Notes: generated from the sequence alone by a model not told the origin. Positions 10,238 to 58,339 are shown, numbered from the stretch's first letter. The stretch: 64,000 bases of DNA from Alphaproteobacteria bacterium (GCA_965222575.1 OZ244958.1:512001-576000), one strand, 5' to 3'. Numbers and translations: made by a program.

Positions 10238-10299
10238 GGAGAGGAAGCGGGGGGGTATAGGGGGTTGAGTAGAATTATTATCTTGGTATTGAGGGACGA

Positions 10300-11163
10300 A
10301 TGCAACAAAAAGGACTAGTGACTTCTACGACTGAAAGGATAATCACCTTACAGTCAAGTGAAGCGGGGGCAGTAGAGGAGTTTTTACAGGCTCTTCTTAC
10401 TGTTCGTGTAGAATCTGTGCCAAGGTGGAGTTATTTATTATTACCGCAGGGGAAAATTCTGTATGAGATGTTGCTTTTCCCAGTGGGGAAAGCGTGGTGG
10501 CTTTATAGTCCTTATGAGTGTCAAGGACTTCGAGAGAAGCTTTTGTTTTATCGTTTGCGTCGTCCTTTGGAGATTGGGGTGAAGGAGGTGGGACTCCATC
10601 GTTTTTGGGGTTTAGAGGAGGGTATGGTGCTTCGGGAACTGAATGTGGGGGGGGGTATGATTGCTTTGTTTGGGGATCCGCGTTGTGAGCGCTTGTGTTT
10701 TTGGGGTGTTGGGGAAGGAGAGCGGGGGGGGTGGGGGTATAGGCAAGAGACGTTAGAAGCCTTTCAGCGGTGGCAAACTCGTGTGGGCATTCCGGCGCTT
10801 GGTCAAGATTTTGACAGTGGCAAAGTCTTTGCTTTAGAAGCGGGTGGCGTGGTGTGGCGGGCTGTGGATATTGATAAGGGGTGTTATCTTGGGCAAGAGG
10901 TTGTCACGCGTATGCAGGTACGCAATTTACAAAAGAGGGGCTTTATTTCTGTGCGGTGGAAGGGGGTGATACCGGCGCCTGGCCAAGAGGAAATTCTCCA
11001 AGGGTCTCCTGATGAACAACCCTTGTGTATTGGGCATTTGCGTTCCTATTGGCAAGAGAAGGACAGCGGTGGTGGTCTTGCGTGGGTGGACTTAAGAGCC
11101 ATGAGAAAAGACTCCCTTTTTTTTCTAAAAAAGCATAGCATTATGCTTGAGGTAGAAAGATAG
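10300..11163 (+). CDS. ygfZ: Folate-binding Fe-S repair protein YgfZ
   Basis: FLQAL, LLPQGK, KGCYLGQEVVTR signature. Confidence 0.9.
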   Translation: MQQKGLVTSTTERIITLQSSEAGAVEEFLQALLTVRVESVPRWSYLLLPQGKILYEMLLFPVGKAWWLYSPYECQGLREKLLFYRLRRPLEIGVKEVGLHRFWGLEEGMVLRELNVGGGMIALFGDPRCERLCFWGVGEGERGGWGYRQETLEAFQRWQTRVGIPALGQDFDSGKVFALEAGGVVWRAVDIDKGCYLGQEVVTRMQVRNLQKRGFISVRWKGVIPAPGQEEILQGSPDEQPLCIGHLRSYWQEKDSGGGLAWVDLRAMRKDSLFFLKKHSIMLEVER

Positions 11164-11194
11164 GATTGCAAAATGGAGACAAAGGCGTTATATT

Positions 11195-11707
11195 ATGGGC
11201 ATAAGCGGAGATGATCTGTTTTTTAGGGAGCTTTTATCCAGTGCTCTTAAGGGGGAGGGTTACGGGGTTGTTTGCGTCCGAATACTGCGTGGTAGAAAGC
11301 CGGTTTTTCAATTGATGATAGAGAGGCTGGATAAGAAGCCGGTTGGGTTGAAGGATTGTCAAAAGGTGAGCTGTTATGTCTCTACGATTTTGGATGTAGA
11401 AGACCCTATTGCGGGGGCTTTTTCTCTTGAGGTTTCGTCTCCGGGGGTGAACAGGCCTTTGGTGACCAGTGCGGACTTTTCTGCTTACGAGGGCGAGAGA
11501 GTAGAGGTAGTGATTCGATTCCCTAGGGAGGGACAAAGAGTCTTCCGGGGTATCCTGAGGGGGAAAGAAGGGGAGTGTGTCTTGTTGCAAGAGCAGCAAC
11601 TAGGCTTGACGACTCTTCCGTTTTCGGAGATTACGAAGGCTTGTCTTATGCCCTGTGATGTGCATTCGACGGGGGAACGGGAACTAATGGAGGGTGAACA
11701 ACGGTGA
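11195..11707 (+). CDS. rimP: Ribosome maturation factor RimP
   Basis: LDVEDPI..LEVSSPGVNRPL; upstream of nusA. Confidence 0.95.
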   Translation: MGISGDDLFFRELLSSALKGEGYGVVCVRILRGRKPVFQLMIERLDKKPVGLKDCQKVSCYVSTILDVEDPIAGAFSLEVSSPGVNRPLVTSADFSAYEGERVEVVIRFPREGQRVFRGILRGKEGECVLLQEQQLGLTTLPFSEITKACLMPCDVHSTGERELMEGEQR

Positions 11708-13230
11708 ATTGGACAGAAATTGAACTGCTTGCTGATGCGATATCTGCTGGGAAAGCCATTACACTTGAGAAGGTGTTGGAGGCTATGGAGGAAGCGTTGG
11801 GGAGGGCGGCTTATCAGGAGTATAAGGGCCCTGTGAAGGTGACATTGGATCAGAAGAAGAAGACGGTGTCTTTTCAACGTATCTGGGAGGTGGTGGAGGC
11901 ATTTCCTTTAGGTGAGCATAGGGATAAATTCCTATTGCTTGACGAGGCACGAAAGAAGAAAAAGACGGTGAAAGTCGGGGATATTCTAACGGAGGATGTA
12001 CCGCCTATTAAGATGACGCGGGTGGGGGCACAGCTTGCTAAGCAAGTGTTATTTGCCAAGGTACGGCAAGCGGAGCAGGAGAGTCAATATCAGGAATTTT
12101 CTGCTCGTGCGGGCACTTTGATTAATGGTGTTGTGCGCAATGTAGATTATGCTGGCGTGGAAGTGGATGTTGGGGGGAATGCGGAGATTTTTCTCCCGCG
12201 CAAGGAGATGATACCGCAGGAAATGTTTCGACAAGGCGATCATATTTGCGCTTATCTTACGGAGGTTGAGAGTGAGAATAAGGAGAAGGATAATAAAATT
12301 ATTCTTTCGAGAACGCATCCGCAGTTTTTGGTTCATCTTTTCGCTCAGCAAGTGCCGGAGATTTATGAAAACATTATTGAAATCAAGGCGGTAGCGCGAG
12401 ACCCTGGGAGTAAATCTAAAGTTGCTGTTCTGTCGAATGATGCGAAGTTAGACCCTATTGGGGCTTGTGTTGGCATGCGCGGTAGCCGCGTCCGGTGGAT
12501 TACCAGTGAGCTACAGGGAGAGCGTATTGATATTGTCCCGTATTCTGATAGTATTGTCACTTTTGTGGTTAATGCCTTGGGGTTATCGGAGGTGACGAAA
12601 GTGATTTTTCCGGAGGAAGAGGGGCGTGTTGAAGTGGTGGTGCCGGAGAATCAGCTATCTCTTGCTATTGGGAGGCGGGGGCAAAATGTGCGGCTTGCGC
12701 ATCAGTTAACGGGCTTTTATATTGATATTCGTACTGAGGAGCAAGAGGCGAAACGAAAAGATGAAGAGACGACTAAGTACGGCGCTCTTTTCGCTGCGGC
12801 TTTGGATGTGGATGAGATTATGGCGCAGTTTTTTGTGACGCAAGGATTTCGCTCCGTTGAAGATATTGTAGCTGTAGGCGAAAAGGACTTGATTGCCATG
12901 GACGCACTGGACGAAGAAGTGGCAAAGGAGCTTTATCAACGCGCTTCAACGTATCTTGCGCAACGTGAAGCGAAAGATAGGCAGTGGGTGAAAGAACAGG
13001 GCATGGAAGAGAGCCTCTTTGAGTTGCCTCATCTTTCTGCTGCTATGCTACGTTGTCTTGCGGAGGCAGGCATTTTGACACTGCAAGATGTCGCAGCACT
13101 CGCCGGCTATGAATTAAGTAGTAAGCAAGGGGGCATTTTGAAAGATTTTGATTTGTTGGAAGAAAAAGCCAATGAAATTGTCATGGAAGCCCGCAAGCCT
13201 TGGTTCACTAACTCCCCCCCGTCTAAATGA
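11704..13230 (+). CDS. nusA: Transcription factor NusA
   Basis: S1/KH domains: ARDPGSKSK, DPIGACVGMRGSR, SLAIGRRGQNVRLA. Confidence 0.97.
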   Translation: MNWTEIELLADAISAGKAITLEKVLEAMEEALGRAAYQEYKGPVKVTLDQKKKTVSFQRIWEVVEAFPLGEHRDKFLLLDEARKKKKTVKVGDILTEDVPPIKMTRVGAQLAKQVLFAKVRQAEQESQYQEFSARAGTLINGVVRNVDYAGVEVDVGGNAEIFLPRKEMIPQEMFRQGDHICAYLTEVESENKEKDNKIILSRTHPQFLVHLFAQQVPEIYENIIEIKAVARDPGSKSKVAVLSNDAKLDPIGACVGMRGSRVRWITSELQGERIDIVPYSDSIVTFVVNALGLSEVTKVIFPEEEGRVEVVVPENQLSLAIGRRGQNVRLAHQLTGFYIDIRTEEQEAKRKDEETTKYGALFAAALDVDEIMAQFFVTQGFRSVEDIVAVGEKDLIAMDALDEEVAKELYQRASTYLAQREAKDRQWVKEQGMEESLFELPHLSAAMLRCLAEAGILTLQDVAALAGYELSSKQGGILKDFDLLEEKANEIVMEARKPWFTNSPPSK

Positions 13231-15548
13231 CACAAGACCAAAAAAGACCAACGCTTTCACTTTCTTCTAGCCGCGAGGGGGCTGAAAAATCGAAACGTAA
13301 AGGAACGATAGAAGTGGAAATCCACCGTAGAAGCTCTTTTTCAAGCGGAAAATCTTTAAATCCCGTGGTGTCTTCCGCTGTTCGTCCCTTACCCTCTTCT
13401 TCTACTAAGAAGATAGGCATTAGTCTCTCCACTCTTCAAGAAAGGCAACGACAATTAAAGGAGAAACAAGAAACAAGTCCTTCCGTTTCTGTGAGTTTTA
13501 TCAATCAAGTTGTCAAGAAGAAGAGTATGACAAGCACAAAGAGCGCGAAACAGAAAAAGCCCGCTCTTAAAGCGGCAGGCAAAAGAGAGAAAAAGCTTGC
13601 CGGTGCGGGAAGCCGTAAGGCGTTGACAGTGGTAGAAGTTCTCAGTCCTGTTTCTTCACAGGAGAAGACCTATTCCTTAGCGTCACAGAAGAGGCGGCAT
13701 GAGAAGATGGGGTCGGTTGTGGAGTCTTCTCCGCTGCCACCGCTACCGCCTCCGCCGTCGTCTGTACAGAAGGTTGTGCGGGATGTTGTCATATCGGGTC
13801 CTATGACGGTGGCGGATTTGTCTAATAGGATGGCGGAAACGAAAGGGGAGGTGGTCAAGAAGCTTATGGTTTTAGGGGTGATGGCTTCTGTGACGCAAAC
13901 CATTGATGCGGATACGGCGCAGTTAGTGGCTGAGGAGTTTGGGCATCGGGTGAAACGTGTGGATGAGGCGCTGATGGAGGAGGCGTTATTAGCGGAGCGT
14001 GATGTAGCGGAGCAGTTGGTGGAGCGTTCTCCTGTTGTGGTGATTATGGGACATGTTGACCATGGGAAGACGACGTTGTTGGATGCGTTGAGGCAGTCTT
14101 GTGTTGCTACTAGTGAGAAAGCTGGGATTACGCAGCATATTGGGGCGTATCAGGTGGCGGTACGGAAGAAGTTGGTGACATTTATTGATACGCCGGGTCA
14201 TGCGATTTTCACGCGGATGCGGGCGCGCGGAACGGAAGGAGCGGATATTGTTGTGTTGGTGATAGCGGCGGATGATTCGGTGAAGCCTCAAACGCGAGAA
14301 GCCATAGCCCATGCGAAAGCGGCAGGCGTTGGGTTTGTGATAGCGATTAACAAAGTGGATTTGCCGGGGGCTGACCCGAGCAAGGTACGTCAAGACCTTT
14401 TACAGTGTGGGATAGTGGACGAGTCTTTGGGGGGTGATGTACAGAGTGTAGAGATTTCTGCTACAAAAAAGACCAATCTTGATGGGCTTATTGAAGCGAT
14501 TTTTTTACAATCGGAAGTGATGGAGTTGAAGGGGAACATGGCGGGTCGTGCGCGGGCGGTTGTGATTGAGACCTCTCTGAGTTTGGGGCGTGGACCTGTG
14601 GTGACGGTGTTGGTGAAGAAGGGTGTGTTGAAAAAGGAAGATATTTTTGTTGTAGGGTCGAAATGGGGGCGGGTGCGGGCGTTGCGGGATGATAAAGATA
14701 GAGAGATACCGCAAGCGTCTCTTTCCATGCCTGTTCTGGTGTTGGGGGTATCGGGTCTTCCTAAGTGTGGCGATCTCTTGATGGTGGTGGAAACAGAGGC
14801 GTTGGCTAGGAGAATTGCGGAGACTAGAGAGAGACAGGAAAAAAATCAACACCTTGCTCTGCGCAGTAAAAAACCTGACAAAGAGGAAGACGCCGCTGCT
14901 TCTCCTCAAAAGAAGACCTTACCGATTATTGTGAAAACCGATGTCCATGGGTCTATGGAAGCGATTGTAGGGGCCTTAGAGAAAATGCAAAATGAGGAAG
15001 TGTCCGTTTCTATTCCCCATGCGGCTGTTGGCGAGGTGACAGAGACTGATGTGTTGCTAGCGAAAGCCACGGGGGCGAATATTTTCGCTTTTAACATTAA
15101 AACCTCTCCTCATGGGGCAGCGCTAGCCATGAAGGAAAAGGTCTCCATTAAACGGTTTAATGTGATTTATGAGCTAGTAGAAGAGATTGCGGACGAACTC
15201 GGCTTCATGCTAACGCCCGCTGTGACCTTTGAGAAAAAGGGACAGGCGCTTGTGAAAGAGGTCTTCGGCATGAAAAAAGGCAAAGTGGCCGGCTGTATTT
15301 TGGAAGACGGAGAAATCACTCATGATGCACTCCTAACAGTTAAGCGCGGAGAAGAGGAGTTGTTCAGAGGAGTTGCTAGCTCTTTGAGGCATTTTAAGGA
15401 TGAGGTGCGCTCTGTTGGGAAAACCAGACAGGAGTTTGGGATTGTGCTGAAAGATTTTCAGGAGTTCAAGGAAGGGGATATTATTGAAGCTTTTGAAGAA
15501 AAACACAGCCCTAGAGTGTTTCAGGAAACCCGCTCCTCTCCGTCATGA
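13227..15548 (+). CDS. infB: Translation initiation factor IF-2
   Basis: MGHVDHGKTTLLD, GITQHIGAY, DTPGH, NKVD. Confidence 0.98.
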   Translation: MTQDQKRPTLSLSSSREGAEKSKRKGTIEVEIHRRSSFSSGKSLNPVVSSAVRPLPSSSTKKIGISLSTLQERQRQLKEKQETSPSVSVSFINQVVKKKSMTSTKSAKQKKPALKAAGKREKKLAGAGSRKALTVVEVLSPVSSQEKTYSLASQKRRHEKMGSVVESSPLPPLPPPPSSVQKVVRDVVISGPMTVADLSNRMAETKGEVVKKLMVLGVMASVTQTIDADTAQLVAEEFGHRVKRVDEALMEEALLAERDVAEQLVERSPVVVIMGHVDHGKTTLLDALRQSCVATSEKAGITQHIGAYQVAVRKKLVTFIDTPGHAIFTRMRARGTEGADIVVLVIAADDSVKPQTREAIAHAKAAGVGFVIAINKVDLPGADPSKVRQDLLQCGIVDESLGGDVQSVEISATKKTNLDGLIEAIFLQSEVMELKGNMAGRARAVVIETSLSLGRGPVVTVLVKKGVLKKEDIFVVGSKWGRVRALRDDKDREIPQASLSMPVLVLGVSGLPKCGDLLMVVETEALARRIAETRERQEKNQHLALRSKKPDKEEDAAASPQKKTLPIIVKTDVHGSMEAIVGALEKMQNEEVSVSIPHAAVGEVTETDVLLAKATGANIFAFNIKTSPHGAALAMKEKVSIKRFNVIYELVEEIADELGFMLTPAVTFEKKGQALVKEVFGMKKGKVAGCILEDGEITHDALLTVKRGEEELFRGVASSLRHFKDEVRSVGKTRQEFGIVLKDFQEFKEGDIIEAFEEKHSPRVFQETRSSPS

Positions 15549-15898: not shown

Positions 15899-16751
15899 TA
15901 AACCATCAGGCATCAGCTCTTTTGATGTGATTAGAACCTTAAAGACGTTCTATCAGGGAAAAGTCGGCTATGTTGGTACCCTAGACCCTTTGGCTACGGG
16001 CGTTTTACCCTTAGCCTTAGGAGAGGCAACAAAATGTATTTCCATGGTCATTGAAGGGCGAAAAACCTATGAAGTGACCGTGAGATGGGGGGTGAAAACG
16101 GATACAGGGGATTGCGAGGGGAATAAGCTCCTCACAAGTCCGCACTCACCCACACAGCAAGAGGTCGAAAGGGTAGCGACCTCCTTTTTAGACCGCCAGT
16201 ACTGGCAAAGGCCTCACCCTTTTTCTGCTGTTAAAGTCAAGGGCAAACGCGCCTATCAACTAGCAAGAGCCGGCAACCCTGTGACTCTCCCCCCGCGTGT
16301 CGTGAGTCTCTTTTCCTTCTCCTGTTCGTCTCCTTCCTCTTTCTCTTTGCAATGCTCAAAAGGATTTTATGTCCGCTCTTTCGTTGAAGATTTAGCCAAA
16401 CCCTTAAACACCTATGCCCATATCACGGCTTTAAGAAGAATTGAAGCCGCCCCTTTTCATATTAAGCAGGCCTTCTCTCTTCAGAAAAACATGACACTTG
16501 CGCACCTTAAAACCCTTGTGATGCCTATAGAAGCCGCTCTCTGTGAACACTGTGCGCTGACTGTTACGAGGCAACAAGAGAGGGATTTATGCCTTGGGAA
16601 AAAAGTGAAAGTGACAGCAGTGCGCACAGGGGGCGAAAAATCCTTTTATGGATGGGCTAGAGGAGAAGAAGGAAAATGTGTTGCACTTGTTACAGGTTTA
16701 CTGCACACTGATGGTATTGTGCTGATTCCTAAGTGTGTGTTGGTGAGGTAG
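15870..16751 (+). CDS. truB: tRNA pseudouridine-55 synthase
   Basis: DKPSGISS, GTLDPLATGVL, FSAVKVKGKRAY, CSKGFYVRS. Confidence 0.95.
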   Translation: MTLSGWLVSDKPSGISSFDVIRTLKTFYQGKVGYVGTLDPLATGVLPLALGEATKCISMVIEGRKTYEVTVRWGVKTDTGDCEGNKLLTSPHSPTQQEVERVATSFLDRQYWQRPHPFSAVKVKGKRAYQLARAGNPVTLPPRVVSLFSFSCSSPSSFSLQCSKGFYVRSFVEDLAKPLNTYAHITALRRIEAAPFHIKQAFSLQKNMTLAHLKTLVMPIEAALCEHCALTVTRQQERDLCLGKKVKVTAVRTGGEKSFYGWARGEEGKCVALVTGLLHTDGIVLIPKCVLVR

Positions 16752-16808
16752 GCGTTTGAAATGGGGGGTATGTAAGATAGGGATATGAGATAGGAGATAG
16801 GATAAAGG

Positions 16809-17078
16809 TTGAGAAACGTGGCAGCAACGACACAAGAGCGGGTAAAGGAATTTGGCAACAGTTCAACGGACACAGGGGCTTCTTCAGTTCAGATAGCGCT
16901 TCTTACGGATAGGATTTTAGCGCTTACCTTACATGTGCAACAGAATAAGAAGGATAATGCGACGAAGCGCGGGCTTTACCGGTTGGTGAATCAGAGGAAA
17001 AAACTTCTCTCTTATTTGAAGAGGAAGGATGTAGAGGGGTATCAGAGTGTGCTTGGAAAACTTAAGTTAAGAAAATAA
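16809..17078 (+). CDS. rpsO: 30S ribosomal protein S15
   Basis: DTGASSVQIALLT..RGL..LV.QR.KLL.YL. Confidence 0.96.
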   Translation: MRNVAATTQERVKEFGNSSTDTGASSVQIALLTDRILALTLHVQQNKKDNATKRGLYRLVNQRKKLLSYLKRKDVEGYQSVLGKLKLRK

Positions 17079-17099
17079 AATAATAGATGAGGAAAGTAG

Positions 17100-19178
17100 A
17101 TGAAAGTGTATAAAGAAGAAGTGTCATTTGGAGAGGAATCTTTGTTTCTTGAGACGGGGAAAATTGGTCGACAAGCTGATGGGTCTGTGATGGTGAGATA
17201 TGGAGAAACGGTTGTATTGGTGACGGTTGTTGTGGGTTCGGAAGTGGAGGAACAAGATTTTTTGCCTCTTGCTGTGACCTATCAGGAAAAGACATTTGCA
17301 GTGGGGCGTATTCCCGGGGGTTTTTTCAAGCGGGAGGGAAGACCTAGTGAGCATGAAACCTTGGTCTCAAGGTTAATTGATAGGTCTATTAGGCCTTTAT
17401 TTCATGAGGATTTTTCCTCTACGACTCAAGTTTTGTGTACGGTGTTAGCCTATGATATGAAGCATGATCCGGCTTTAGCGGCTATGATTGGGACATCGGC
17501 GGCGCTTCAGATAGCGGGGGTTCCTTGGAATGGGGTTATTGCAGCCGCTAGAGTTGGGTATCAGGAGGGTAAGTTTGTGATAAATCCTGATTTAGACAAT
17601 CTCAAGGAGTCCTCTTTAGACCTTATAGTAGCAGGTGGGAAGGAGGCGGTTTTGATGGTTGAGTCCAAAGCGCAGGAATTAAGTGAGAAGGAGATGATAG
17701 AGGCTGTGATGGTGGGGCATAAGGCTTTTTTACCGGTGATTGAGGCTATTGAGCGGTTGGCTTTGAAGGTTGGAAAAGCGCCTTTGTCTGTGTCTTTGCC
17801 GAAGGCAGCGCAAGATTTTAGTACGCGTGCGGAAGCGGTAGGAGACAAGATAGAAAAAGCTTATGCTTTGTCTGTGAAGCAGGAACGGGTGGTGCAGTTG
17901 AAGGCAGTGCTTGAGGGGTTTTTGGAGACCTTTGAGGAAGAAGAGAGAAGCGAAGCGAAAAAAGCCTTCAAAAAGGTGGAAAAACAAAGAATGCGCCGTG
18001 ACATTCTTAAGGGGAAGAAGCGTATTGATGGAAGAGGGATGGACGAGATTCGCACTATTGAGTGCGAAGTAGGATTTTTACCGCAGGTACATGGCTCGGC
18101 TTTATTTACGCGCGGTGAAACGCAAGCACTAGTGGTAACGACTTTGGGGACGGGCGATGATGAACAGCTGGTGGACGCTCTTGAGGGCGTTACGAAAGCG
18201 AATTTTCTCCTGCACTACAATTTTCCGCCTTATTCCGTAGGAGAAACATCCATGCGGCTTGGCCCGGGAAGACGCGAAATTGGACATGGAAAACTCGCAT
18301 GGCGCGCCCTACAACCGCTGCTGCCCCCTGAATTCCCTTATACCATACGCATTGTGGCAGAAATTACAGAAAGCAATGGCTCTTCCTCCATGGCGACGGT
18401 CTGTGGGGCTTCCCTGTCCTTAATGGATACCGGTGTTCCTCTTAAAGCCCCCGTGGCTGGTATTGCTATGGGACTCGTCAAAGAAAAAGACGAATTTGTT
18501 GTCCTCTCCGATATCTTAGGCGATGAAGACCACTTAGGGGATATGGATTTTAAGGTTGCAGGCACCGCTGAGGGCATTACCGCTTTGCAAATGGATATCA
18601 AGATACATGGCGTTACGCAAGGCATTATGGAAACCGCTCTGGAACAGGCAAGAGTGGGGCGACTTCATATTTTGGAGAAAATGAGCCAAGTTGTCTCGAC
18701 CGAACGGAAAACCATGCGCGATACCGTTCCTAGAATGGTGAAATTCCAGATTCCTGAGCCTAAAATTCGCGAAGTCATTGGCGCTGGCGGAAAAGTCATT
18801 AAGGAAATTTGTGCTTCCACTGGCGCGAAACTGGATATCGAAGACGATGGGATGATTACTATCTCTTCTGCTAATGCTCAAGGCCTGAAAGATGCGAAAC
18901 AATGGGTTATGGATATTGCTATGGACCCAAAAGTCGGCGGTATTCATAAAGGGAAGGTCGTCAAAACACTGGATTTCGGCGCCTTCGTCTCTTTTGGCAT
19001 AGGAAAAAAAGATGGCTTAGTCCATATTTCTCAACTGGACAATAAACGGGTAGGCAGAGTCAATGATGTCGTAAAAGAAGGAGACGAAGTCTTTGTGAAA
19101 ATCCTCAATGTAGAAGACAATGGACGCATCAGACTTTCTATGAAAGAAGTCAACCAAAAAACAGGAGAGTCCTTTTAA
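17100..19178 (+). CDS. pnp: Polyribonucleotide nucleotidyltransferase
   Basis: IPGGFFKREG, RREIGHG, SNGSSSMA, GDMDFKVAG, KH and S1 domains. Confidence 0.98.
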   Translation: MKVYKEEVSFGEESLFLETGKIGRQADGSVMVRYGETVVLVTVVVGSEVEEQDFLPLAVTYQEKTFAVGRIPGGFFKREGRPSEHETLVSRLIDRSIRPLFHEDFSSTTQVLCTVLAYDMKHDPALAAMIGTSAALQIAGVPWNGVIAAARVGYQEGKFVINPDLDNLKESSLDLIVAGGKEAVLMVESKAQELSEKEMIEAVMVGHKAFLPVIEAIERLALKVGKAPLSVSLPKAAQDFSTRAEAVGDKIEKAYALSVKQERVVQLKAVLEGFLETFEEEERSEAKKAFKKVEKQRMRRDILKGKKRIDGRGMDEIRTIECEVGFLPQVHGSALFTRGETQALVVTTLGTGDDEQLVDALEGVTKANFLLHYNFPPYSVGETSMRLGPGRREIGHGKLAWRALQPLLPPEFPYTIRIVAEITESNGSSSMATVCGASLSLMDTGVPLKAPVAGIAMGLVKEKDEFVVLSDILGDEDHLGDMDFKVAGTAEGITALQMDIKIHGVTQGIMETALEQARVGRLHILEKMSQVVSTERKTMRDTVPRMVKFQIPEPKIREVIGAGGKVIKEICASTGAKLDIEDDGMITISSANAQGLKDAKQWVMDIAMDPKVGGIHKGKVVKTLDFGAFVSFGIGKKDGLVHISQLDNKRVGRVNDVVKEGDEVFVKILNVEDNGRIRLSMKEVNQKTGESF

Positions 19179-19190: not shown

Positions 19191-19294
19191 CACACTCCCC
19201 CGGGGCACTGGGAGAGGAGGCAACACGCACTCCCGCACACTGAGGGGAAGAGAGGGTGTACGCACTCCTCTGCACACTGAGGGAAGAGGGGGTA
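19191..19294. repeat. Three degenerate 35-bp tandem units between convergent pnp and mltG
   Basis: CGCACTCC..GCACACTGAGGG.AAGAG at 19226 and 19261; diverged copy at 19191. Confidence 0.85.
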
Positions 19295-19351
19295 TCTGTA
19301 TAGCTAGGGGTGACCCCCTAAGGGGTGAAGCTTACAAAAGAGTCTTGTTGC

Positions 19352-20281
19352 TTATTTTCTGAGGGCGCGAATATTGTTGATATGGTCTTTTAGGGTTTCT
19401 GAGAAGAGGTGTCCGCCTTTTTTGTCAGCGACGAAATAGAGGGCTTTTGTTTTTGCGGGCTGTAGAACGGCTTTGATGGAGGCTTTGCCGGGATGACAAA
19501 TAGCACCGGGCGGTAAGCCTTTGAACACATAGGTATTAAAAGGGTGGGGGGTTTTGAGTTTCTTTTTTGTCAGCGGCGGCTGTTCCTTATATAAAACGGA
19601 AGGGTCTGATTGTAGTAACATGCCTTTGCGTAAGCGATTGTAGAAAACGCCGGCTATCCTGTAGCGTTCGTGTTCACGTGCGGTTTCTTTTTCCACTAGA
19701 GAGGCTAAAATGACAGCTTCTTGAGGCGTGGTGATAAGGTCTGAGAGGGCTTCTTTGTTGCGGTTTTCCCAAGCGGTATTGAGAAACTCCTCTTGTGCCG
19801 TTTTCAGTCTGGTAATCACTGAGGATACAGGAGTTTGGTGTTCTATGTAATAGGTTTCAGGTAAAAGGCTGCCTTCAGCGAAAGCAGGCGGGGTATCTTG
19901 TCTTAAAAATGGACTCTTCTTGAGGAGAGATAAAATCTCTTCAGAGGTTAGTCCTTCTGGAATCATCAGGGTGGTAATTTCTGTTTGTCCTTTGATGAGG
20001 CGGTATAAAATGCTTGCTCCTAGCGTCCCTTTCTCAAAGGAGTAAGTCCCTGCCACAATGCGTTTGTCTTGCCCTAAAAGGCGCGTATAAAAAATAAACA
20101 GCCGGGGAGTGGCGAGATTGTCCTCAAAAGACGACACAATGGACTTCAGAGATTGACCGTATGCAATGTTAAGGTGTACAGGTACCTTAATGGGAAGAGC
20201 AAAGGCTAGGAGGAAAAGGCCTATCTGGCTTACCACAAGTAAGACAATGAGGACGATTAAAGTTTTTTGAAAATTATACAC
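19352..20281 (-). CDS. mltG: Endolytic transglycosylase MltG
   Basis: IPEG, EGSLLPETY, LASLVEKET, LQSDP, GLPPGAI, LYFVAD. Confidence 0.94.
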   Translation of the reverse strand: MYNFQKTLIVLIVLLVVSQIGLFLLAFALPIKVPVHLNIAYGQSLKSIVSSFEDNLATPRLFIFYTRLLGQDKRIVAGTYSFEKGTLGASILYRLIKGQTEITTLMIPEGLTSEEILSLLKKSPFLRQDTPPAFAEGSLLPETYYIEHQTPVSSVITRLKTAQEEFLNTAWENRNKEALSDLITTPQEAVILASLVEKETAREHERYRIAGVFYNRLRKGMLLQSDPSVLYKEQPPLTKKKLKTPHPFNTYVFKGLPPGAICHPGKASIKAVLQPAKTKALYFVADKKGGHLFSETLKDHINNIRALRK

Positions 20282-24128: not shown

Positions 24129-24210
24129 ATCGTAAAAAAATACCTGTTATTACTATAGACAATTTCTATCTTCAGGGAAAAGAATTAAAAGAAAGCCAAT
24201 GAGAGATTCT

Positions 24211-24507
24211 TCTTGTCAAAGGCTAAGGGAAACCAGTGAAAGTAGGGCGTGAGGTTGGCGGATTGTCTTTAGTCTCTTGTCAAAGGCTAAGGGGAAACCA
24301 GTGAGAGTAGGGCGTGAGGAGGTTGGCGGGTTGTCTTCAGTCTCTTGTCAAAGGCTAAGGGGAAACCAGTGAAAGTAGGGCGTGAGGTTGGCGGGTTGTC
24401 TTCAGTCTCTTGTCAAAGGCTAAGGGGAAACCAGTGAAAGTAGGGCGTGAGGTTGGCGGATTGTCTTCAGTCTCTTGTCAAAGGCTAGGGGGAAACCAGT
24501 GAGAGTA
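24211..24507. repeat. Tandem array A: 4.5 copies of about 65 bp, including the prfB 3' end
   Basis: Units start at 24211, 24275, 24343, 24408, 24473 (TCTTGTCAAAGGCTAAGGGGAAACCAGTGAAAGTAGGGCGTGAGGTTGGCGG...). Confidence 0.97.
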
Positions 24508-40716: not shown

Positions 40717-40836
40717 TGCTTTCCCTGTCATGACTCCTCCTCCTCTTTGCTTTTGCTCTGGAAAATTTTATTTGTTATTATATTTCAGTTCTTTTATTAT
40801 AAGCAAAAGGATAAATCAACAATAGAGAGAAAAAAG

Positions 40837-41037: not shown

Positions 41038-41045
41038 CAGAATTG

Positions 41046-48997: not shown

Positions 48998-49075
48998 ACT
49001 AGCTTTCTCAGTATCATCCTACTTTTCTGATAGTAAGGAGAAGTGTAGCATAACACGTTTCCTTCTGCACAATCA

Positions 49076-50049
49076 GAAAAAAACATTGTTACCAGCTTGA
49101 AGGACTTTGCGGGGGAGGTGAAACGGAGGGTGGCTGTTGGTGGGGAGGAAAAACATCGTTACCAGCTTGAAGGGCTTTGCGGGGGAGGTGAAACGGAGGG
49201 TGGCTGTTGGTGGGGAAGAAACACATCGTTACCAGCTTGAAGGGCTTTGCGGGGGAGGTGAAACGGAGAGTGTGCTGTTGGTGGGGAAGAAACACATTGT
49301 TACCAGCTTGAAGGGCTTTGCGGGGGAGGTGAAACGGAGAGTGTGCTGTTGGTGGGGAGGAAACACATCGTTACCAGCTTGAAGGGCTTTGCGGGGGAGG
49401 TGAAACGGAGGGTGTGCTGTTGGTGGGGAGGAAAAACATCGTTACCAGCTTGAAGGGCTTTGCGGGGGAGGTGAAACGGAGGGTGGCTGTTGGTGGGGAG
49501 GAAACACATCGTTACCAACTTGAAGGGCTTTGCGGGAGAGGTGAAACGGAGAGTGTGCTGTTGGTGGGGAAGAAAAACATTGTTACCAGCGGAAGGGCTT
49601 TGCGGGGGAGGTGAAACGGAGGGTGGCTGTTGGTGGGGAGGAAAAACATCGTTACCAGCTTGAAGGGCTTTGCGGGAGAGGTGAAACGGAGCTTGAAGGG
49701 CTTTGCGGGAGAGGTGAAACGGAGAGTGTGCTGTTGGTGGGGAGGAAACACATCGGAAGGGCTCTAACGGGGGATCAGTGAAACGGAGTTTCATACTAGC
49801 TGTTGGTGGGGAGGAAACACATCGTTACCAGCTTGAAGGGCTTTTCTGAGAGGTGAAACGGAGAGTGTGGCTGTTGGTGGGGAGGAAACACATCGTTTCT
49901 TGAAGGGCTTGCGGGAGAGGTGAAACGGAGAGTGTGCTGTGTTACCAGCTTTGCGGGAGAGGTTACAGGGCTTTGCAGAGGTGAAACGGAGAGTGTGCTG
50001 TTGGTGGGGAAGAAACACATTGTTACCAGCTTGAAGGGCTTTGCGGGGG
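49076..50049. repeat. Tandem array C: about 13 copies of 70-71 bp between divergent fadD and tsaD; right part scrambled
   Basis: GTTACCAGCTTGAAGGGCTTTGCGGGGGAGGTGAAACGGAG..CTGTTGGTGGGGA at 49088, 49158, 49228, 49299, 49370, 49441, 49511, 49582, 49651 and on to 50022. Confidence 0.97.
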
Positions 50050-54830: not shown

Positions 54831-55647
54831 GCCTTAAAAACGAGAGGAGTTGTAGCATTTGCTTTGTTTCCTTTATATCATGAACGCGGAGAATCTGTAC
54901 CCCCTGTAAAACGCCCCACGCCCCACACACAATAGACCCAATTAATCGGCTGCTTGGAGAAGCCGCACCGGTACAGACTTTCCCAATGAAGGACTTGCGT
55001 GAGACGCCTAGCACAACACCTGCTCCTAAGCCTTGAAAAGAGGATAAAGACTGTAACAGCAACCCATTGTGAGCCGTCTTCTTCCCAAATCCAATACCCG
55101 GGTCTACAAAAATCTTCTCCTTCAGTATACCACACTTCATTAGTCTTGCACATCTGTTAGATAACCACTGCCTCACTTCTTCCACAACATTCTCATACAC
55201 AGGACACGCCTGCATGGTCTTTGGGAGTCCCTGACAATGCATCACCACAGCATAACAGTCTTTATAGGCTCTCATCACCTCTAAAGATTTCTCATCTGCA
55301 CAGAAACCGCTGGTATCATTTATCATCTTGGCACCCTCCTCTAAGGCTAGCTGCATCACGGAGGCCTTGCGTGTATCAACGGATATCACCACCTCCTCCC
55401 CAAAAGCCTTGCGCACTGCCCGCAACACTGGCAAAAGACGCCGCTTTTCCTCTTGTGCTTCCACAGGCTCACTGCCAGGACGGGTGGACTCCCCGCCAAT
55501 ATCAAGAATGTTTGCTCCTGCTTCTACCATAGAGTGAGCGTGACGAAGAGCACGAGCAGGGGTGTTGTAAAGACCACCATCGGAAAAACTATCAGGCGTC
55601 ACATTCAAAACCCCCATAATTAACGGCTTTTTCTTGGGAAGGGTCAT
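54820..55647 (-). CDS. folP: Dihydropteroate synthase (in-frame alternative start at 55725 inside the array)
   Basis: MGVLNVTPDSFSDGG, DIGGESTRPG, DPGIGFGK, SRKSF, RVHD. Confidence 0.96.
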   Translation of the reverse strand: MTLPKKKPLIMGVLNVTPDSFSDGGLYNTPARALRHAHSMVEAGANILDIGGESTRPGSEPVEAQEEKRRLLPVLRAVRKAFGEEVVISVDTRKASVMQLALEEGAKMINDTSGFCADEKSLEVMRAYKDCYAVVMHCQGLPKTMQACPVYENVVEEVRQWLSNRCARLMKCGILKEKIFVDPGIGFGKKTAHNGLLLQSLSSFQGLGAGVVLGVSRKSFIGKVCTGAASPSSRLIGSIVCGAWGVLQGVQILRVHDIKETKQMLQLLSFLRHDV

Positions 55648-56353
55648 GTTCTCTGAGTGTGAGAGAGGGAGAGGGGTGGGGGAGGAAGAAAGGAGAGGTT
55701 CGGCTTTTTCTTTAGGAAAGTTCATGTTCTCTGAGTGTGAGAGAGGAGAGAGGTGTGGGGGAGGAAGAAAGGAGAGGTTTGGCTTTTTCTTTAGGAAAGT
55801 TCATGTTCTCTGAGTGTGAGAGAAGGAGAGAGTGTGTGGGGGAGGAAGAAAGGAGAGGTTTGGCTTTTTCTTTGGGAAGGGTCATGTTCTCTGAGTGTGT
55901 GAGAGAAGGAGAGAGAGGTTTGGCTTTTTCTTGGGAAAGAAGGGATGAGGTTTGGCTTTTTCTTTAGGAAGGGTCATGTTCTCTGAGTGTGAGAGAAGGA
56001 GAGAGTGTGTGGGGGAGGAAGAAAGGAGAGGTTTGGCTTTTTCTTTAGGAAAGTTCATGTTCTCTGAGTGTGAGAGAAGGAGAGAGTGTGTGGGGGAGGA
56101 AGAAAGGAGAGGTTTGGCTTTTTCTTTAGGAAGGGTCATGTTCTCTGAGTGTGAGAGAAGGAGAGAGTGTGTGGGGGAGGAAGAAAGGAGAGGTTTGGCT
56201 TTTTCTTTAGGAAGGTTCATGTTCTCTGAGTGTGAGAGAGGAGAGAGGGGTGGGGGAGGAAGAAAGGAGAGGTTTGGCTTTTTCTTTAGGAAGGGTCATG
56301 TTCTCTGAGTGTGAGAGAAGGAGAGAGTGTGTGGGGGAGGAAGAAAGGAGAGG
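55624..56353. repeat. Tandem array D: 9 copies of about 81 bp, each carrying the folP start region
   Basis: Minus-strand GAGAAC-ATG with ATG at 55647, 55725, 55804, 55885, 55977, 56058, 56139, 56220, 56299. Confidence 0.97.
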
Positions 56354-56383
56354 GTAGCAACGGGTGGGGGGATGCGGAGGCTA

Positions 56384-58285
56384 CTAGGCGGGTTTCGGCA
56401 CAAGTTTTTTTGTTGAGGGGATGAGGGAAAAGGGGGTTTTTTTTCTTGCTGGCTTTTTGCTAGGAGTGTATTTTTTCAAGGGTTGTCCTTTGAGGATTTT
56501 TTGAATCTCTTTTCCTGTGAGGGTTTCGTGTTCTAATAGAGCCTTTGCTAGGGCGTGGAGGGAGTTGATATCTTTTTTAATGATGGTGCGGGCTTTTTCC
56601 GTCGCCATGTTAATCAGTTTTTTGACTTCCTTGTCCACGATTTTGGCTGTGTTATCGGACATATTTTTTACTTTTGCTACAGAGTGGCCTAAGAAAATTT
56701 CTTCTGAGTCTTCGCTGTAACGGATGGGGCCTAATTCGTCGGACATACCCCATTCTGTTACCATTTTTCTTGCGAGACTGGTTGCCATTTTGATATCGTT
56801 AGAAGCGCCTGTTGTGACGGATTCGCAGCCAAAGACTTCCTCTTCTGCTATACGTCCTGCCATAGCAACAATGAGATTTGCTTTCAGTTGCTTTCGTTTC
56901 ATAGACAAGTGATCTTTTTCTGGCAACTGCATGACAAGCCCCAGAGCGCGTCCGCGCGGAATAATCGTCGCCTTGTGAATAGGGTCAGCTGCTGGAAGCT
57001 GTGTTGCTACCAGTGCATGACCTCCTTCGTGATAGGCTGTGAGTTTCTTCTCTTCCTCTGTCATAATCAACGACCGTCTTTGGGCCCCCATCATCACTTT
57101 GTCCTTGGCCTCTTCTAACTGCTCCATGAACACCATGCTTTTGTTCTTGCGCGCCGCTAATAAGGCTGCTTCGTTGACTAAGTTGGCTAAATCTGCTCCA
57201 CTGAACCCCGGCGTGCCACGGGCTATGTCTATAATGGAATTCTCAACCTCATCGGCTGTTTTAACGTCTCTTAAATGCACGCGTAAAATTGCCTCACGAC
57301 CCTTGATGTCCGGCGTCGGTACCACAATTTGGCGGTCAAATCGACCGGGACGTAATAAGGCAGGGTCTAGGACATCAGGGCGATTTGTTGCTGCTATCAA
57401 CACAATGGAGGTCTGCGTCGTAAACCCATCCATCTCAACCAATAACTGATTGAGCGTTTGCTCCCGTTCGTCATTGCCACCCCCAAGTCCCGCCCCACGA
57501 TGCCGCCCCACCGCATCAATTTCATCAATAAAAATAATACAAGGGGCACTCTTCTTCCCTTGCTCAAACATATCCCGCACGCGACTCGCTCCAACCCCTA
57601 CAAACATCTCTACAAAATCTGAGCCAGAGATAGAAAAAAACGCAACACTAGCCTCTCCCGCCACCGCACGGGCAAGCAATGTCTTCCCCGTACCGGGCAG
57701 ACCAACCAATAAACACCCCTTGGGTATCTTGCCTCCTAAACGACGAAACTTATGCGGATTCTTCAAAAACTCCACAATCTCATAAAGTTCTTCCTTGGCT
57801 TCCTCAATCCCAGCGACATCCTTAAAGGTCACCTTCTTCTTCCCTTGCGTCATTAACCGCGCCTTAGAACGACCAAATCCAAACGCTTTACCCCCACCCT
57901 TATTCATCTGACGCAAAAACAATAACGACATCCCTATCAGCAACAACATCGGTAACCAAGAGAGAAAAATACTCAAAAAAGAAATCCCCATCCCTCTTTC
58001 CTTCACTGATATCATCACCCCTTGCCCTCTTAAAGATGTCACCAAATTCGGGTCAAATAACGCTGTCGTCTTAAATACACGTCCATCCTTCGTATTCCCT
58101 TCTATTTTATTCCCTTCTATATACACCTCTTTGACATAATTCCCCTCAACAGCATCTAAAAAATCACTGTAAACCCACTGCTCACGACGAAAAAAATCTC
58201 CTCCATCCGATAGCATATTCATCCCTATGACCGTCAATAAAATCCCAATCACTATTAACGGAAAAAGAGGCTTCTTGGTTTTCAT
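56384..58285 (-). CDS. ftsH: ATP-dependent zinc metalloprotease FtsH
   Basis: 2 TM helices, [30 protein letters not shown]. Confidence 0.98.
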
Positions 58286-58339
58286 CTCGTAATCCCTTGT
58301 CTGCTACACACTAAAGATATGTCCCGATTATACTCTATT

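What the first reader, a model, noticed from the sequence alone, without database searches (positions are those of the whole stretch)
10240..58300. Kb-scale sawtooth GC skew whose upward flips coincide with the arrays
Seen by eye, not computed: the + strand switches abruptly from C-rich to G/T-rich at about 10240, 13750, 16700, 19200, 24200, 25600, 28400, 38750, 41040, 49080, 52680 and 55650. It then decays back to C-rich over 1-4 kb, often inside one gene (pnp, purA, mrcA, ftsH). Same-strand genes show opposite skew (central infB G-rich, xerC C-rich), so neither one replichore nor coding-strand bias explains it. Arrays A-D and the 19191 mini-array all sit on flips. Known: a C-to-G flip is the polarity expected at a bidirectional replication origin. 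Inference: many dispersed initiation or ssDNA/R-loop sites that also trigger local re-replication. This is the best candidate for an undescribed system here.
Basis: partly seen in the sequence, partly recalled or inferred. Interest (0 to 1): 0.8.

Follow-up and report, generated by a model that had tools for sequence, protein, structure and literature searches.

The report
Kilobase strand-skew mosaic in a bacterium
In this small bacterial genome the excess of G over C on one DNA strand swings between extremes every few thousand bases, even inside single genes; this looks mostly like a mutational footprint of which strand is left single-stranded during replication and at the starts of transcription units, not like many replication origins.

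Summary
At fourfold-degenerate sites the + strand GC skew in the window swings between about -0.9 and +0.83 on a 1-4 kb scale, often inside one intact gene.

The pattern is genome-wide and absent from a control genome and from 73 pnp orthologues.

The 300-bp signal splits into layers:
- replichore, 29%
- regional blocks, raising the explained share to 54%
- a pulse of non-template-strand G/T excess lasting roughly 0.6-1 kb at transcription-unit starts, raising it to 56-66% (83 up vs 17 down among 371 starts)
- about one third unexplained

The base signature (C and A lost, T and G gained on the G-rich strand) fits single-strand deamination.

Arrays lie on flips in this window. Genome-wide they add nothing beyond promoter-bearing spacers. 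Sharp downward steps are nearly as common as upward ones.

Dispersed replication initiation and re-replication are not supported. A role for ssDNA or R-loops at promoters is plausible but untested.

The parts
10028..12840 (+). G-rich (+ strand) island. Step-like onset at 10028, inside the first 70 codons of serC (- strand) and 272 bp upstream of the ygfZ start. It covers ygfZ, rimP and the 5' three quarters of nusA.
   Evidence: Edge fit: x0 = 10028, width 1 bp, w = 400 rejected by dNLL 10.4. HMM G segments 10034-10977, 11287-12447 and 12579-12840. GC4 skew 0.4-0.67.
13678..14843 (+). G-rich island wholly inside infB. Onset is 451 bp after the start codon. It ends 705 bp before the stop.
   Evidence: Edge fits at 13678 and 14843. 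Third-position letters are about 95% G in the centre. GC4 skew reaches +0.83.
16552..18124 (+). G-rich island starting in the 3' end of truB, 257 bp upstream of rpsO. It covers rpsO and the 5' half of pnp and ends sharply inside pnp.
   Evidence: Edge fits at 16552 (w = 1) and 18124 (w = 85). pnp GC3 skew is +0.72 in the 5' part and -0.19 in the 3' part.
19200..19763 (+). Short G-rich island. It begins in the convergent pnp|mltG spacer, which holds the 36-bp mini-array (19225-19293), and covers the 3' end of mltG.
   Evidence: Edge fit at 19200. TRF row 19225-19293. HMM G segments 19361-19763.
24172..24896 (+). G-rich island. The step lies in the spacer right of the dcd start. Then come array A (24211-24507, 65 bp x 4.5) and the 3' third of prfB (- strand), ending in a sharp downward step.
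   Evidence: Edge fits at 24172 and 24896. TRF. A weak + strand promoter-like site lies at 24156-24185.
28000..29600 (+). Upward flip at the divergent mrcA|dciA spacer. The G-rich stretch then covers the DciA-family ORF (28060-28446), array B (28362-29039, 55 bp x 12), an ORF of no family and tRNA-Met. It decays through purA into xerC.
   Evidence: Largest jump 0.71 at 28372 at all sites, and 1.47 at third positions. TRF. Pfam DciA. tRNA. GC4 skew falls from +0.71 to -0.87 by 31200.
33926..35374 (+). G-rich island over hutG and the 3' end of hutH (- strand genes), to the right of the split hutU.
   Evidence: Edge fits at 33926 (w = 203) and 35374 (w = 1). hutU is in two pieces.
40745..41727 (+). 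G-rich island starting at a 109-aa + strand ORF of no family and running into the 3' end of nnr (- strand).
   Evidence: Edge fits at 40745 and 41727. Pfam found no family for the ORF.
49026..50012 (+). Upward step 29 bp right of the fadD start. Then come array C (49079-49940, 70 bp x 8.7 plus diverged copies) and the start of tsaD. The skew decays through tsaD into murJ, with a sharp drop at 51337.
   Evidence: Edge fits. TRF. GC4 skew falls from +0.78 to -0.83 by 51800.
55616..57144 (+). The strongest flip. It comprises array D (55625-56353, 81 bp x 9, skew +0.73) at the folP start and the 3' third of ftsH (- strand). The decline is gradual (w = 400).
   Evidence: Jump 0.97 at 55616. TRF. 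Edge fit at 57144, w = 400.
61714..62164 (+). G-rich island over the 3' part of sufS (- strand), preceded by a rise from about 61200 over sufU.
   Evidence: HMM G segment. GC4 skew +0.42 to +0.65.
30536..31998 (+). C-rich stretch (3' end of purA plus xerC). Third positions are about 90% C among G+C.
   Evidence: HMM C segment, skew -0.68. xerC GC4 skew -0.86. Letters.
57413..59465 (-). C-rich on the + strand, that is coding-strand G-rich: the 5' half of ftsH plus tilS (- strand unit).
   Evidence: HMM C segment, skew -0.64. Letters.
25612..27990 (-). mrcA. Its coding strand runs from G-rich (5') to neutral or slightly C-rich (3').
   Evidence: Slope -0.34 per kb, p = 5.6e-7. Letters.

Best explanation
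The flips are a mutational footprint, not a machine. This lineage has a very strong strand-asymmetric substitution pressure of the deamination type. The strand that is more often single-stranded loses C (to T) and A (to G) and ends up G+T-rich. Fourfold sites reach G:C of about 5:1 overall and more than 10:1 locally.

Such a pressure records every lasting asymmetry, in four layers:
(a) the direction of the replication fork, which makes the window's + strand C-rich by default;
(b) regional blocks of several kb to about 75 kb whose skew does not fit their replichore, most simply relocated or inverted segments;
(c) a pulse of G/T excess on the non-template strand that starts within about 100 bp of the first start codon of a transcription unit and fades over roughly 0.6-1 kb;
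(d) further local islands that I cannot place.

In the window, layer (c) on top of layer (a) gives sharp upward steps at promoter-bearing spacers and slower declines inside genes. The arrays sit in such spacers and are themselves G-rich.

Shown: the layers, their sizes, the anchoring at unit starts and the base signature.
Inferred: that the pulse comes from exposure of the non-template strand (open DNA or R-loops) near promoters. Also inferred: that the G-rich islands over the 3' ends of - strand genes next to arrays mark unannotated + strand transcripts.
For: The skew is at synonymous sites and far above noise.
- The SD of 900-bp skew (third positions plus intergenic sites) is 0.29-0.36, against a binomial 0.077.
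- 69 of 457 genes show an internal trend at p<1e-3, where 0.46 are expected.
- A same-class control genome shows 0 of 178.
- 1 of 73 pnp orthologues shows a trend.

The state belongs to the DNA region, not to the gene's direction.
- Neighbouring genes on opposite strands correlate at +0.59 in + strand terms, against 0.70 for same-strand neighbours.

Layers of the reproducible 300-bp signal, fitted on one half of the sites and tested on the other half:
- replichore, 29%
- a +-5 kb regional baseline, 54%
- adding a uniform unit-start pulse, 56%
- adding a pulse with its own amplitude per unit, 66%

Anchoring at transcription-unit starts.
- First 700 bp vs 1000-2500 bp: 42 units are more G-rich at the 5' end vs 4 the other way at p<1e-3, out of 229 units. 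At p<1e-6 it is 20 vs 1.
- Unit start vs the upstream stretch: 83 up vs 17 down out of 371, and alike in co-directional, head-on, tandem and divergent settings.
- Tandem junctions with a gap under 20 bp give -0.039. Gaps of 100-250 bp give +0.184, with 12 large rises and no large fall.
- Divergent junctions give +0.21, with 25 large rises vs 2 large falls out of 109.
- The unselected profile over 179 tandem units is about 0 upstream, then +0.18 at 0-100 bp, fading by about 1 kb.

Base signature.
- On the G-rich strand, C/(C+T) falls from 0.45 to 0.215 and G/(G+A) rises from 0.47 to 0.70.
- The shift at unit 5' ends goes the same way: 0.412 vs 0.483, and 0.525 vs 0.49.

Sharp upward edges genome-wide: 34 of 44 lie where a unit start is expected. 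In tandem intergenic spacers there are 15 up vs 5 down.
Against: The unit-start pulse adds only 2-12% of the signal, and about 34% stays unexplained.

The average pulse is about 0.15. The window's swings are 1.3-1.6 units, so very large amplitudes specific to single units must be assumed.

Several co-directional - strand genes (prfB, ftsH, mltG, nnr, hutH) have strongly C-rich coding strands at their 3' ends. Neither the fork direction nor their own transcription predicts this.

14 of the 78 sharp edges lie deep inside genes: 6 of 44 upward and 8 of 34 downward. Sharp falls are almost as common as sharp rises: 89 vs 91 at z>5, and 44 vs 34 at z>6.

The ribosomal-protein region, which is highly expressed and co-directional, is only mildly skewed (map).

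The repair and R-loop genes I looked for are present, so there is no obvious cause for so strong a pressure.

The onset at the start codon could also point to a translation-linked cause.

Gene and unit calls are my own ORF-based ones. No transcript data exist.
Confidence: 0.5

Rival explanations
1. Mosaic by history. The kb-scale segments are tracts brought in or turned round by inversion, translocation or homologous recombination with lineages in which the same DNA is replicated in the other direction. They have not yet re-equilibrated.
For: Regional baselines explain 54% of the signal, against 29% for the replichore alone. Whole blocks at genome 141-152 kb and 189-266 kb have the wrong skew for genes of both orientations. 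Sharp up and down edges are about equally frequent, as expected for block ends. A review notes that inversions and transfer create pseudo-shift points (PMC3269016, passages read). The two tuf copies are 99.66% identical, so gene conversion does occur.
Against: Inversions cannot end inside intact conserved genes, yet 14 of 78 sharp edges are deep intragenic. The canonical rimP-nusA-infB-rbfA-truB-rpsO-pnp order is intact while the skew flips four times within it. History alone does not predict the 83:17 and 42:4 polarity at unit starts. Reaching opposite saturation needs donors that differ at most synonymous sites, and no close relative was found. Contigs from two other runs are collinear over 8993-21243, though these may come from the source sample.
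Confidence: 0.2
2. Many dispersed replication-initiation sites (for example R-loop primed) fire in both directions at the flips and cause local re-replication that builds the arrays. This would be a bacterial analogue of mammalian skew N-domains.
For: The polarity of the steps (C-rich to the left, G-rich to the right) is that of an origin. In the window, units of both orientations run from about +0.7 to -0.6 or -0.85 in coding terms, as in N-domains. Arrays sit at five flips. The island lengths cluster near 1.2 kb.
Against: The unselected profile at tandem unit starts has no mirrored dip upstream: 0.02-0.03 before and +0.16 after (100-bp bins). The rise is a pulse that returns to baseline by about 1 kb, not a step that lasts to a terminus. 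Sharp falls are as common as sharp rises. Arrays genome-wide give +0.087 (p = 0.15, 52 junctions), and the sign follows gene orientation: 12 of 12 positive at divergent junctions, mean -0.248 at convergent ones. The global V-shaped skew and the gene-orientation bias fit one main origin near genome position 577 kb. rnhA and recG are present.
Confidence: 0.06
3. Fixed lagging-strand priming sites. Within each Okazaki-sized unit, the time the template spends single-stranded rises with distance from the primer. This writes a sawtooth with a period of 1-3 kb.
For: The spacing of flips in the window is about 1.2-4.8 kb. The base signature is that of single-strand exposure. By my own derivation, the predicted polarity (sharp rise, slow fall) is the same in both replichores.
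Against: This predicts skew between zero and the replichore's own sign. The islands reach +0.8 against a C-rich default. It does not predict anchoring at transcription-unit starts or the dependence on spacer length. Fixed priming sites are, as far as I recall, not known in bacteria.
Confidence: 0.04
4. Selection on synonymous sites or on mRNA (codon choice, RNA folding, nucleotide cost) shapes the 5' to 3' gradient.
For: On average the onset lies at the start codon within 100 bp. The gradient follows the gene's own direction.
Against: Non-coding arrays and spacers share the state of their flanks. Opposite-strand neighbours share the + strand state. First and second codon positions shift too. 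73 pnp orthologues show no such gradient. As far as I recall, the range of 0.6-1 kb is far beyond known 5' codon effects.
Confidence: 0.04
5. Artefact of assembly or base calling.
For: None found. The genome is a single contig from a metagenome-like source, and its assembly history is unknown to me.
Against: The ORFs are intact and match their families end to end across the flips. Contigs from two other runs cover 8993-21243 in one piece with 7 and 13 differences; they may come from the same sample. The pattern follows codon position.
Confidence: 0.02

Closest known systems
Replication-associated GC skew of bacterial replichores (leading strand G+T-rich; established knowledge, recalled; reviewed in PMC3269016, passages read)
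   Same: There is a global V-shaped cumulative skew, with its minimum at genome position 576,990 and its maximum at 1,145,854. Genes lean towards co-orientation with the fork. The G+T excess matches a C-to-T type signature.
   Different: The replichore explains only 29% of the local signal. The skew changes sign many times within one replichore and inside genes. Local fourfold-site skew reaches +-0.8-0.9.
GC skew just downstream of transcription starts in eukaryotes: R-loop-forming human CpG-island promoters (PMC3787257, search listing and start of abstract only), and plants and fungi (Fujimori 2005 and Tatarinova 2003, seen only as references in PMC3269016)
   Same: The G excess is on the non-template strand, starts at the unit start and fades within about 1 kb. 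It mirrors at divergent promoters.
   Different: This is a bacterium with coupled translation. The skew lies at synonymous sites inside ORFs. Local amplitudes are far larger. R-loops were not tested. The review I read assigns skew shift points to transcription starts in eukaryotes and to origins in prokaryotes.
Skew N-domains of mammalian chromosomes: upward jumps at origins with a linear fall between them (recalled, not read here)
   Same: The window's shape is similar: sharp rise, fall through zero to the opposite extreme, and genes pointing away from the jump.
   Different: The scale is kb rather than Mb. The unselected average shows a one-sided pulse. Sharp falls are common.
Gradient of C-to-T and A-to-G substitution with single-stranded time in vertebrate mitochondrial DNA (recalled; PMC3269012 seen in a search listing only)
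   Same: The same pair of base shifts appears on the exposed strand: C/(C+T) falls and G/(G+A) rises. The skew is graded along the DNA.
   Different: The replication mode differs. Here the gradient restarts every few kb and is tied to transcription units.
Pseudo-shift points caused by inversion or horizontal transfer (PMC3269016, passage read)
   Same: This explains the blocks at genome 141-152 kb and 189-266 kb, and perhaps window 8-20 kb.
   Different: It cannot produce steps inside intact genes, or flips inside an operon whose order is conserved.

Membership tests
Bacterial chromosomal replication origin (oriC type) at each flip | Cluster of DnaA boxes with an adjacent unwinding element | tested here: inconclusive
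   Only the 8 kb around the global skew minimum was scanned in detail: it holds one box-like match. The densest 5-kb bin in the genome holds 3 of the 67 relaxed matches, and it does not lie in the window. The box motifs were recalled. The flip sites themselves were not scanned one by one.
Bacterial chromosomal replication origin (oriC type) at each flip | Two-sided skew switch that persists on both sides until a terminus | tested here: not met
   The unselected profile at tandem unit starts is flat upstream (0.02-0.03), then a pulse that fades by about 1 kb. The islands in the window are 0.4-2.8 kb long.
Bacterial chromosomal replication origin (oriC type) at each flip | Local rise in copy number in growing cells | not testable with these tools
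   The runs that hold the sequence are kept as contigs only, so depth is one figure per contig.
Replichore-type replication skew | One sign of skew per replichore, whatever the gene orientation | tested here: not met
   It holds only on average: R2 = 0.29 over 835 genes. The window changes sign more than 10 times.
Transcription-associated strand asymmetry anchored at unit starts | Excess on the non-template strand that begins at the unit start | tested here: met
   83 up vs 17 down among 371 starts. 42 vs 4 among 229 units. The step lies at 0-100 bp in 179 unselected tandem units. The units are my own calls, not mapped transcripts.
Transcription-associated strand asymmetry anchored at unit starts | Absent at junctions inside operons, present at spacers that can hold a promoter | tested here: met
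   A gap under 20 bp gives -0.039 (n = 275). Gaps of 100-250 bp give +0.184, with 12 large rises and 0 large falls (n = 61).
Transcription-associated strand asymmetry anchored at unit starts | C-to-T type signature on the non-template strand | tested here: met
   C/(C+T) is 0.412 at 0-300 bp and 0.483 at 1200-3000 bp. G/(G+A) is 0.525 and 0.49. Values are balanced over co-directional and head-on units. These are compositions, not observed substitutions.
Transcription-associated strand asymmetry anchored at unit starts | Strength scales with transcript level; R-loops or open DNA present | not testable with these tools
   No RNA run is listed. No DRIP or footprint data exist.
Skew N-domains (origin-bounded sawtooth) | Sharp rises only; falls are gradual | tested here: not met
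   Genome-wide the sharp jumps are 89 up vs 91 down (z>5) and 44 vs 34 (z>6). A step fits better than a broad transition in 29 of 34 falls. In the window there is a trend in favour: w = 400 is rejected in 6 of 10 rises vs 3 of 11 falls.
Inversion or transfer pseudo-shift points | Edges lie between genes, and whole genes carry the reversed state | tested here: inconclusive
   Met for the large blocks. Not met for 14 of the 78 sharp edges, which are deep intragenic, nor for flips within the nusA-pnp operon.

The most novel reading that the evidence does not exclude
One third of the signal is unexplained. It includes sharp steps deep inside genes and G-rich islands of about 1.2 kb over the 3' ends of co-directional genes next to unique tandem arrays. 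This part may mark fixed sites where a strand is displaced for long periods: stable R-loops or D-loops that may also prime DNA synthesis. The chromosome would then carry a kb-scale, promoter-anchored analogue of eukaryotic R-loop promoters or replication N-domains, written into synonymous sites.
Probability: 0.1. Interest if true: 0.85.

Novelty: new variant of a known kind. Interest (0 to 1): 0.55.

Why it matters
If the reading holds, base composition alone maps long-term single-strand exposure in an uncultured bacterium. It would show replication direction, displaced blocks and transcription-unit starts at a resolution of about 100 bp.

It would also show that a non-replicative asymmetry can locally override replication skew in a bacterium. 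That is a caution for predicting origins from skew.

It gives a natural system for asking how much transcription shapes mutation. The pressure is strong enough to change amino-acid usage as well: skew at first and second codon positions runs from -0.48 to +0.39 within genes.

The four paper searches I ran listed no report of kb-scale skew pulses anchored at transcription units in a bacterium. That is not proof that none exists.

Tried and rejected
- RNA evidence: no RNA holder is listed, so expression and antisense transcripts could not be checked.
- Depth and copy number: the runs are contigs only, so no local depth is available.
- Close relatives for a comparative test: none. The 30 'relatives' share only the class, with IF-2 at most 48% identical. 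The metagenome scan with PNPase gave at most 59% identity.
- Promoter scan of 18.8-29.8 kb: 15 sites against 11.3 +- 4 in shuffles, so not above chance.
- G-quadruplex-like motifs: 1 on the + strand and 6 on the - strand of the window, none at an array. Dropped as a cause.
- Shared array units: none. Each array is unique in the genome.
- HMM-segment widths of rises vs falls: no difference (27 vs 27, p = 0.99). The test is crude.
- Genome-wide counts at W = 450 were affected by windows with few sites. One search replaces them.
- Profiles of units chosen for a strong contrast show dips next to the peak. These dips lie in the stretch used for the choice, so I read them as selection effects.
- Loss of repair genes as the cause: family-1 ung is absent. 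A UDG-superfamily gene, mutS, mfd, recG, rho and rnhA are present.
- Annotation of the first genes of the strongest units as a stand-in for expression: not done.

Full report
Setting. The window is bases 512,001-576,000 of a single-contig genome of 1,215,846 bp with 45.7% G+C. The cumulative GC skew has its minimum at 576,990, just right of the window, and its maximum at 1,145,854. Skews over 20 kb reach -0.43 and +0.32. With the usual reading (recalled), the window lies just left of the main origin, and its + strand should be C-rich. NCBIfam names 45 of the 49 ORFs I submitted. Among them is the canonical rimP-nusA-infB, truB and pnp series on the + strand; Pfam adds rbfA and rpsO between them. 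For statistics I made my own ORF-based gene calls: 982 genes covering 87.6% of the genome. I joined same-strand genes less than 60 bp apart into 470 'transcription units'. These are working definitions, not mapped transcripts.

The observation. All-site 500-bp skew in the window runs from -0.49 to +0.70. At fourfold-degenerate sites the + strand skew in 600-bp windows runs from about -0.9 to +0.83, and it changes sign more than ten times. Per-gene coding-strand GC4 skew runs from -0.86 (xerC) to +0.88 (acpP). Third-position letters go from nearly pure G to mostly C within pnp, ftsH, prfB, hutH, nnr and mrcA. At third positions with arrays masked it is 0.88 against 0.34. None of 20000 random sets of 12 reached either value. 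The sites at 38750 and 52680 are weak, and so is 19200 at all sites. The five arrays are real and G-rich on the + strand.

The sawtooth shape holds only in part. Site-level fits show that 8 of 10 rises are step-like, and a 400-bp transition is rejected in 6 of 10. For falls the figures are 5 of 11 and 3 of 11. Sharp falls do exist, at 14843, 18124, 20641, 24896, 35374 and 51337. Genome-wide, sharp jumps number 89 up vs 91 down at z>5, 44 vs 34 at z>6 and 21 vs 13 at z>7.

How unusual it is. Genome-wide, the SD of 900-bp skew (third positions plus intergenic sites) is 0.29-0.36, against a binomial 0.077. The autocorrelation is 0.73 at 300 bp, 0.42 at 1.2 kb and 0.31 at 4.5 kb. Of 457 genes of at least 900 bp, 69 have an internal G-versus-C trend at p<1e-3, where 0.46 are expected. 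Of these, 50 have G towards the 5' end and 19 the reverse. Seven of the 44 genes at p<1e-4 lie in the window, and all seven run 5' G to 3' C. In 400 kb of a same-class genome of 1.4 Mb, 0 of 178 genes pass, and the SD is 0.144 against a binomial 0.118. The same script on genome 400-800 kb gives 24 of 148 and an SD of 0.47. Among 73 pnp orthologues from metagenome contigs (50-59% identical), the difference in GC3 skew between the 5' and 3' parts has a median of 0.03 and a range of -0.35 to +0.29. One of the 73 passes p<1e-3. The window's pnp has +0.72 against -0.19. The pattern is therefore not a property of the gene or the method.

What it is not. It is not a coding-strand bias. Mean coding GC4 skew is about 0: 349 genes lie above +0.15 and 309 below -0.15, out of 835. 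Neighbouring genes on opposite strands share the + strand state (r = +0.59, against 0.70 for same-strand neighbours). It is not the replichore alone (R2 = 0.29). States opposite to the replichore default take 6% of sites in co-directional genes and 7.8% in head-on genes, so head-on transcription as such is not the key.

Layers. I split third-position sites into two interleaved halves and asked what predicts the second half in 300-bp windows. The reproducible variance is 0.184 of 0.221. The replichore explains 29% of it. A +-5 kb regional baseline explains 54%. Adding a uniform pulse at unit starts gives 56%, and a pulse with its own amplitude for each unit gives 66%. About a third stays unexplained. 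The regional layer includes whole blocks with the wrong sign for genes of both orientations, at genome 141-152 kb and 189-266 kb. These look like displaced or inverted segments.

The transcription-unit layer. Averaging co-directional and head-on units cancels replication. What remains is a coding-strand excess of +0.14, +0.11, +0.05 and +0.03 in successive 300-bp bins from the unit start, then about 0. The replication term stays at 0.2-0.25, or 0.3-0.4 near the origin. In 179 unselected tandem-context units the profile is -0.03 to +0.06 upstream. It jumps to +0.18 in the first 100 bp, holds 0.12-0.17 to 600 bp and is near 0.03 beyond 1 kb. AT skew moves the other way, to -0.14 to -0.17 (300-bp bins). 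There is no mirrored dip upstream.

Unit by unit, the first 700 bp are more G-rich than 1000-2500 bp in 42 units and less in 4 (p<1e-3, 229 tested). At p<1e-6 the count is 20 vs 1. Against the upstream 300-1200 bp, 83 unit starts jump up and 17 down (p<1e-3, 371 tested). The ratio is alike in all four settings: 20:4, 14:3, 27:5 and 22:5. Junctions inside operons (gap under 20 bp, n = 275) continue the fall (-0.039). Spacers of 100-250 bp (n = 61) give +0.184, with 12 large rises and no large fall. Divergent junctions (n = 109) give +0.21, with 25 large rises vs 2 large falls. Convergent ones (n = 109) give -0.07, with 11 vs 17. Of the 44 sharpest rises, 34 lie where a unit start is expected. 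In tandem intergenic spacers there are 15 sharp rises vs 5 sharp falls. Profiles of units picked for a strong contrast show dips beside the peak, but these fall in the stretch used for picking. I do not read them as real.

Signature. In the orientation of the G-rich strand, fourfold sites hold A 0.18, C 0.085, G 0.42 and T 0.31. The mixed state holds A 0.26, C 0.225, G 0.236 and T 0.277. C/(C+T) falls from 0.45 to 0.215 and G/(G+A) rises from 0.47 to 0.70. The 5' ends of units shift the same way on the coding strand. This is the pair of changes expected from deamination of C and A on an exposed single strand (established knowledge for mitochondrial DNA, recalled). These are compositions, so the direction of substitution is inferred.

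Arrays. Each of the five arrays is unique in the genome. The genome has 121 arrays with a period of at least 20, with skew of either sign. Across the 52 gene junctions that hold an array, the jump in flanking third-position skew is +0.087 (p = 0.15). It is positive at 12 of 12 divergent junctions and averages -0.248 at the 15 convergent ones. Arrays therefore behave like any spacer of that gene arrangement. In the window, arrays A, C and D begin at or within about 100 bp of the start of a - strand gene (dcd, fadD, folP), and array B lies 372 bp from the mrcA start. They thus sit in promoter-bearing spacers and add their own G-richness. That explains why they coincide with flips.

- dnaA, at genome 69 kb, far from the skew minimum;
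- rnhA;
- recG, at 566 bits, under the curated cut-off of 659;
- a UDG-superfamily gene, while family-1 ung is absent;
- also mutS, mfd and rho.
The one-sided, short-lived pulse, the frequent sharp falls and the lack of a general array effect all speak against origins at the flips. Local re-replication could not be tested. The runs that hold the sequence are kept as contigs. What those contigs do show is that two other runs assemble 8993-21243 collinearly, with 7 and 13 differences, and break at array A. They may come from the source sample.

What remains open. The average pulse (about 0.15) is much smaller than the window's swings. Units of both orientations here run from about +0.7 to -0.6 or -0.85 in coding terms. 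G-rich islands of 0.4-1.5 kb lie over the 3' ends of the co-directional genes prfB, ftsH, mltG, nnr and hutH. One more lies inside infB. None has an annotated + strand start. I infer unannotated + strand transcripts. A weak promoter-like site at 24156-24185 sits on the step at 24172, but the promoter scan as a whole is at chance level. A displaced-strand structure of another kind cannot be excluded.

Comparison with the literature.
- The review PMC3269016 (passages read) assigns skew shift points to transcription starts in eukaryotes and to origins and termini in prokaryotes. It also warns of pseudo-shift points from inversions and transfer.
- PMC3787257 (search listing and start of abstract only) links GC skew at human gene 5' ends to R-loops.
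- My four searches listed no bacterial case of kb-scale skew pulses anchored at transcription units.

Limits.
- Gene and unit calls are my own.
- There is one control genome and one control gene family.
- No relatives closer than class level were found.
- There are no transcript, R-loop or copy-number data.
- Motifs and textbook mechanisms marked as recalled come from no call.

Noticed in passing
genome 776,981-819,307 (+), outside the window: A single open reading frame of 14,108 codons (42 kb). Its GC4 skew is only +0.12, although it is co-directional in a strongly skewed replichore. Its family was not examined.
   Followed up: no
window 32083-33749 (-): hutU (urocanate hydratase) is in two overlapping ORFs, matching profile positions 134-533 and 7-147. 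It is a likely frameshifted pseudogene inside an otherwise complete hut cluster.
   Followed up: no
window 28060-28446 (+): A 128-aa ORF of the DciA family (the ancestral helicase-loading factor) lies directly left of array B and overlaps its first 85 bp.
   Followed up: partly
window 44040-44537 (+): A 165-aa ORF matches the CesT family of type III secretion chaperones (E = 3.8e-19). This hints at a host-associated lifestyle.
   Followed up: no
genome 40,001-57,790 (+), outside the window: Five successive genes of about 2.8 kb each show the reverse internal trend (more G towards the 3' end, p<1e-4 each). This gives a period of about 2.5-3 kb in the skew map. They may be tandem paralogues that share an inherited internal pattern.
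   Followed up: no
genome 141-152 kb and 189-266 kb, outside the window: Large blocks in which genes of both orientations carry the skew of the other replichore. They are candidates for displaced or inverted segments, or for a second replication direction.
   Followed up: partly
genome 86,855-88,045 and 891,692-882,882 region (second copy 891,692-892,882): The two tuf copies are 99.66% identical and lie in opposite replichores. Both are on the + strand, and the copy I measured (86,855) has a G-rich coding strand. Gene conversion keeps them alike.
   Followed up: partly
genome 69,182-70,432 (-): dnaA lies about 500 kb from the cumulative-skew minimum. The minimum itself falls at a divergent junction, suf operon | + strand genes, with no cluster of DnaA-box-like motifs.
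   Followed up: partly
window 23283-24051: In run X2, 9 of the roughly 36 listed differences over 19.9 kb fall within 770 bp at the 5' end of dcd. That stretch is strongly skewed. The numbers are too small for a test.
   Followed up: no
genome 870-877 kb and 942-954 kb, outside the window: There are long arrays of 99-bp and 297-bp units (up to 31 copies) in places my gene caller left non-coding. The periods are multiples of three, which suggests large repeat proteins.
   Followed up: no
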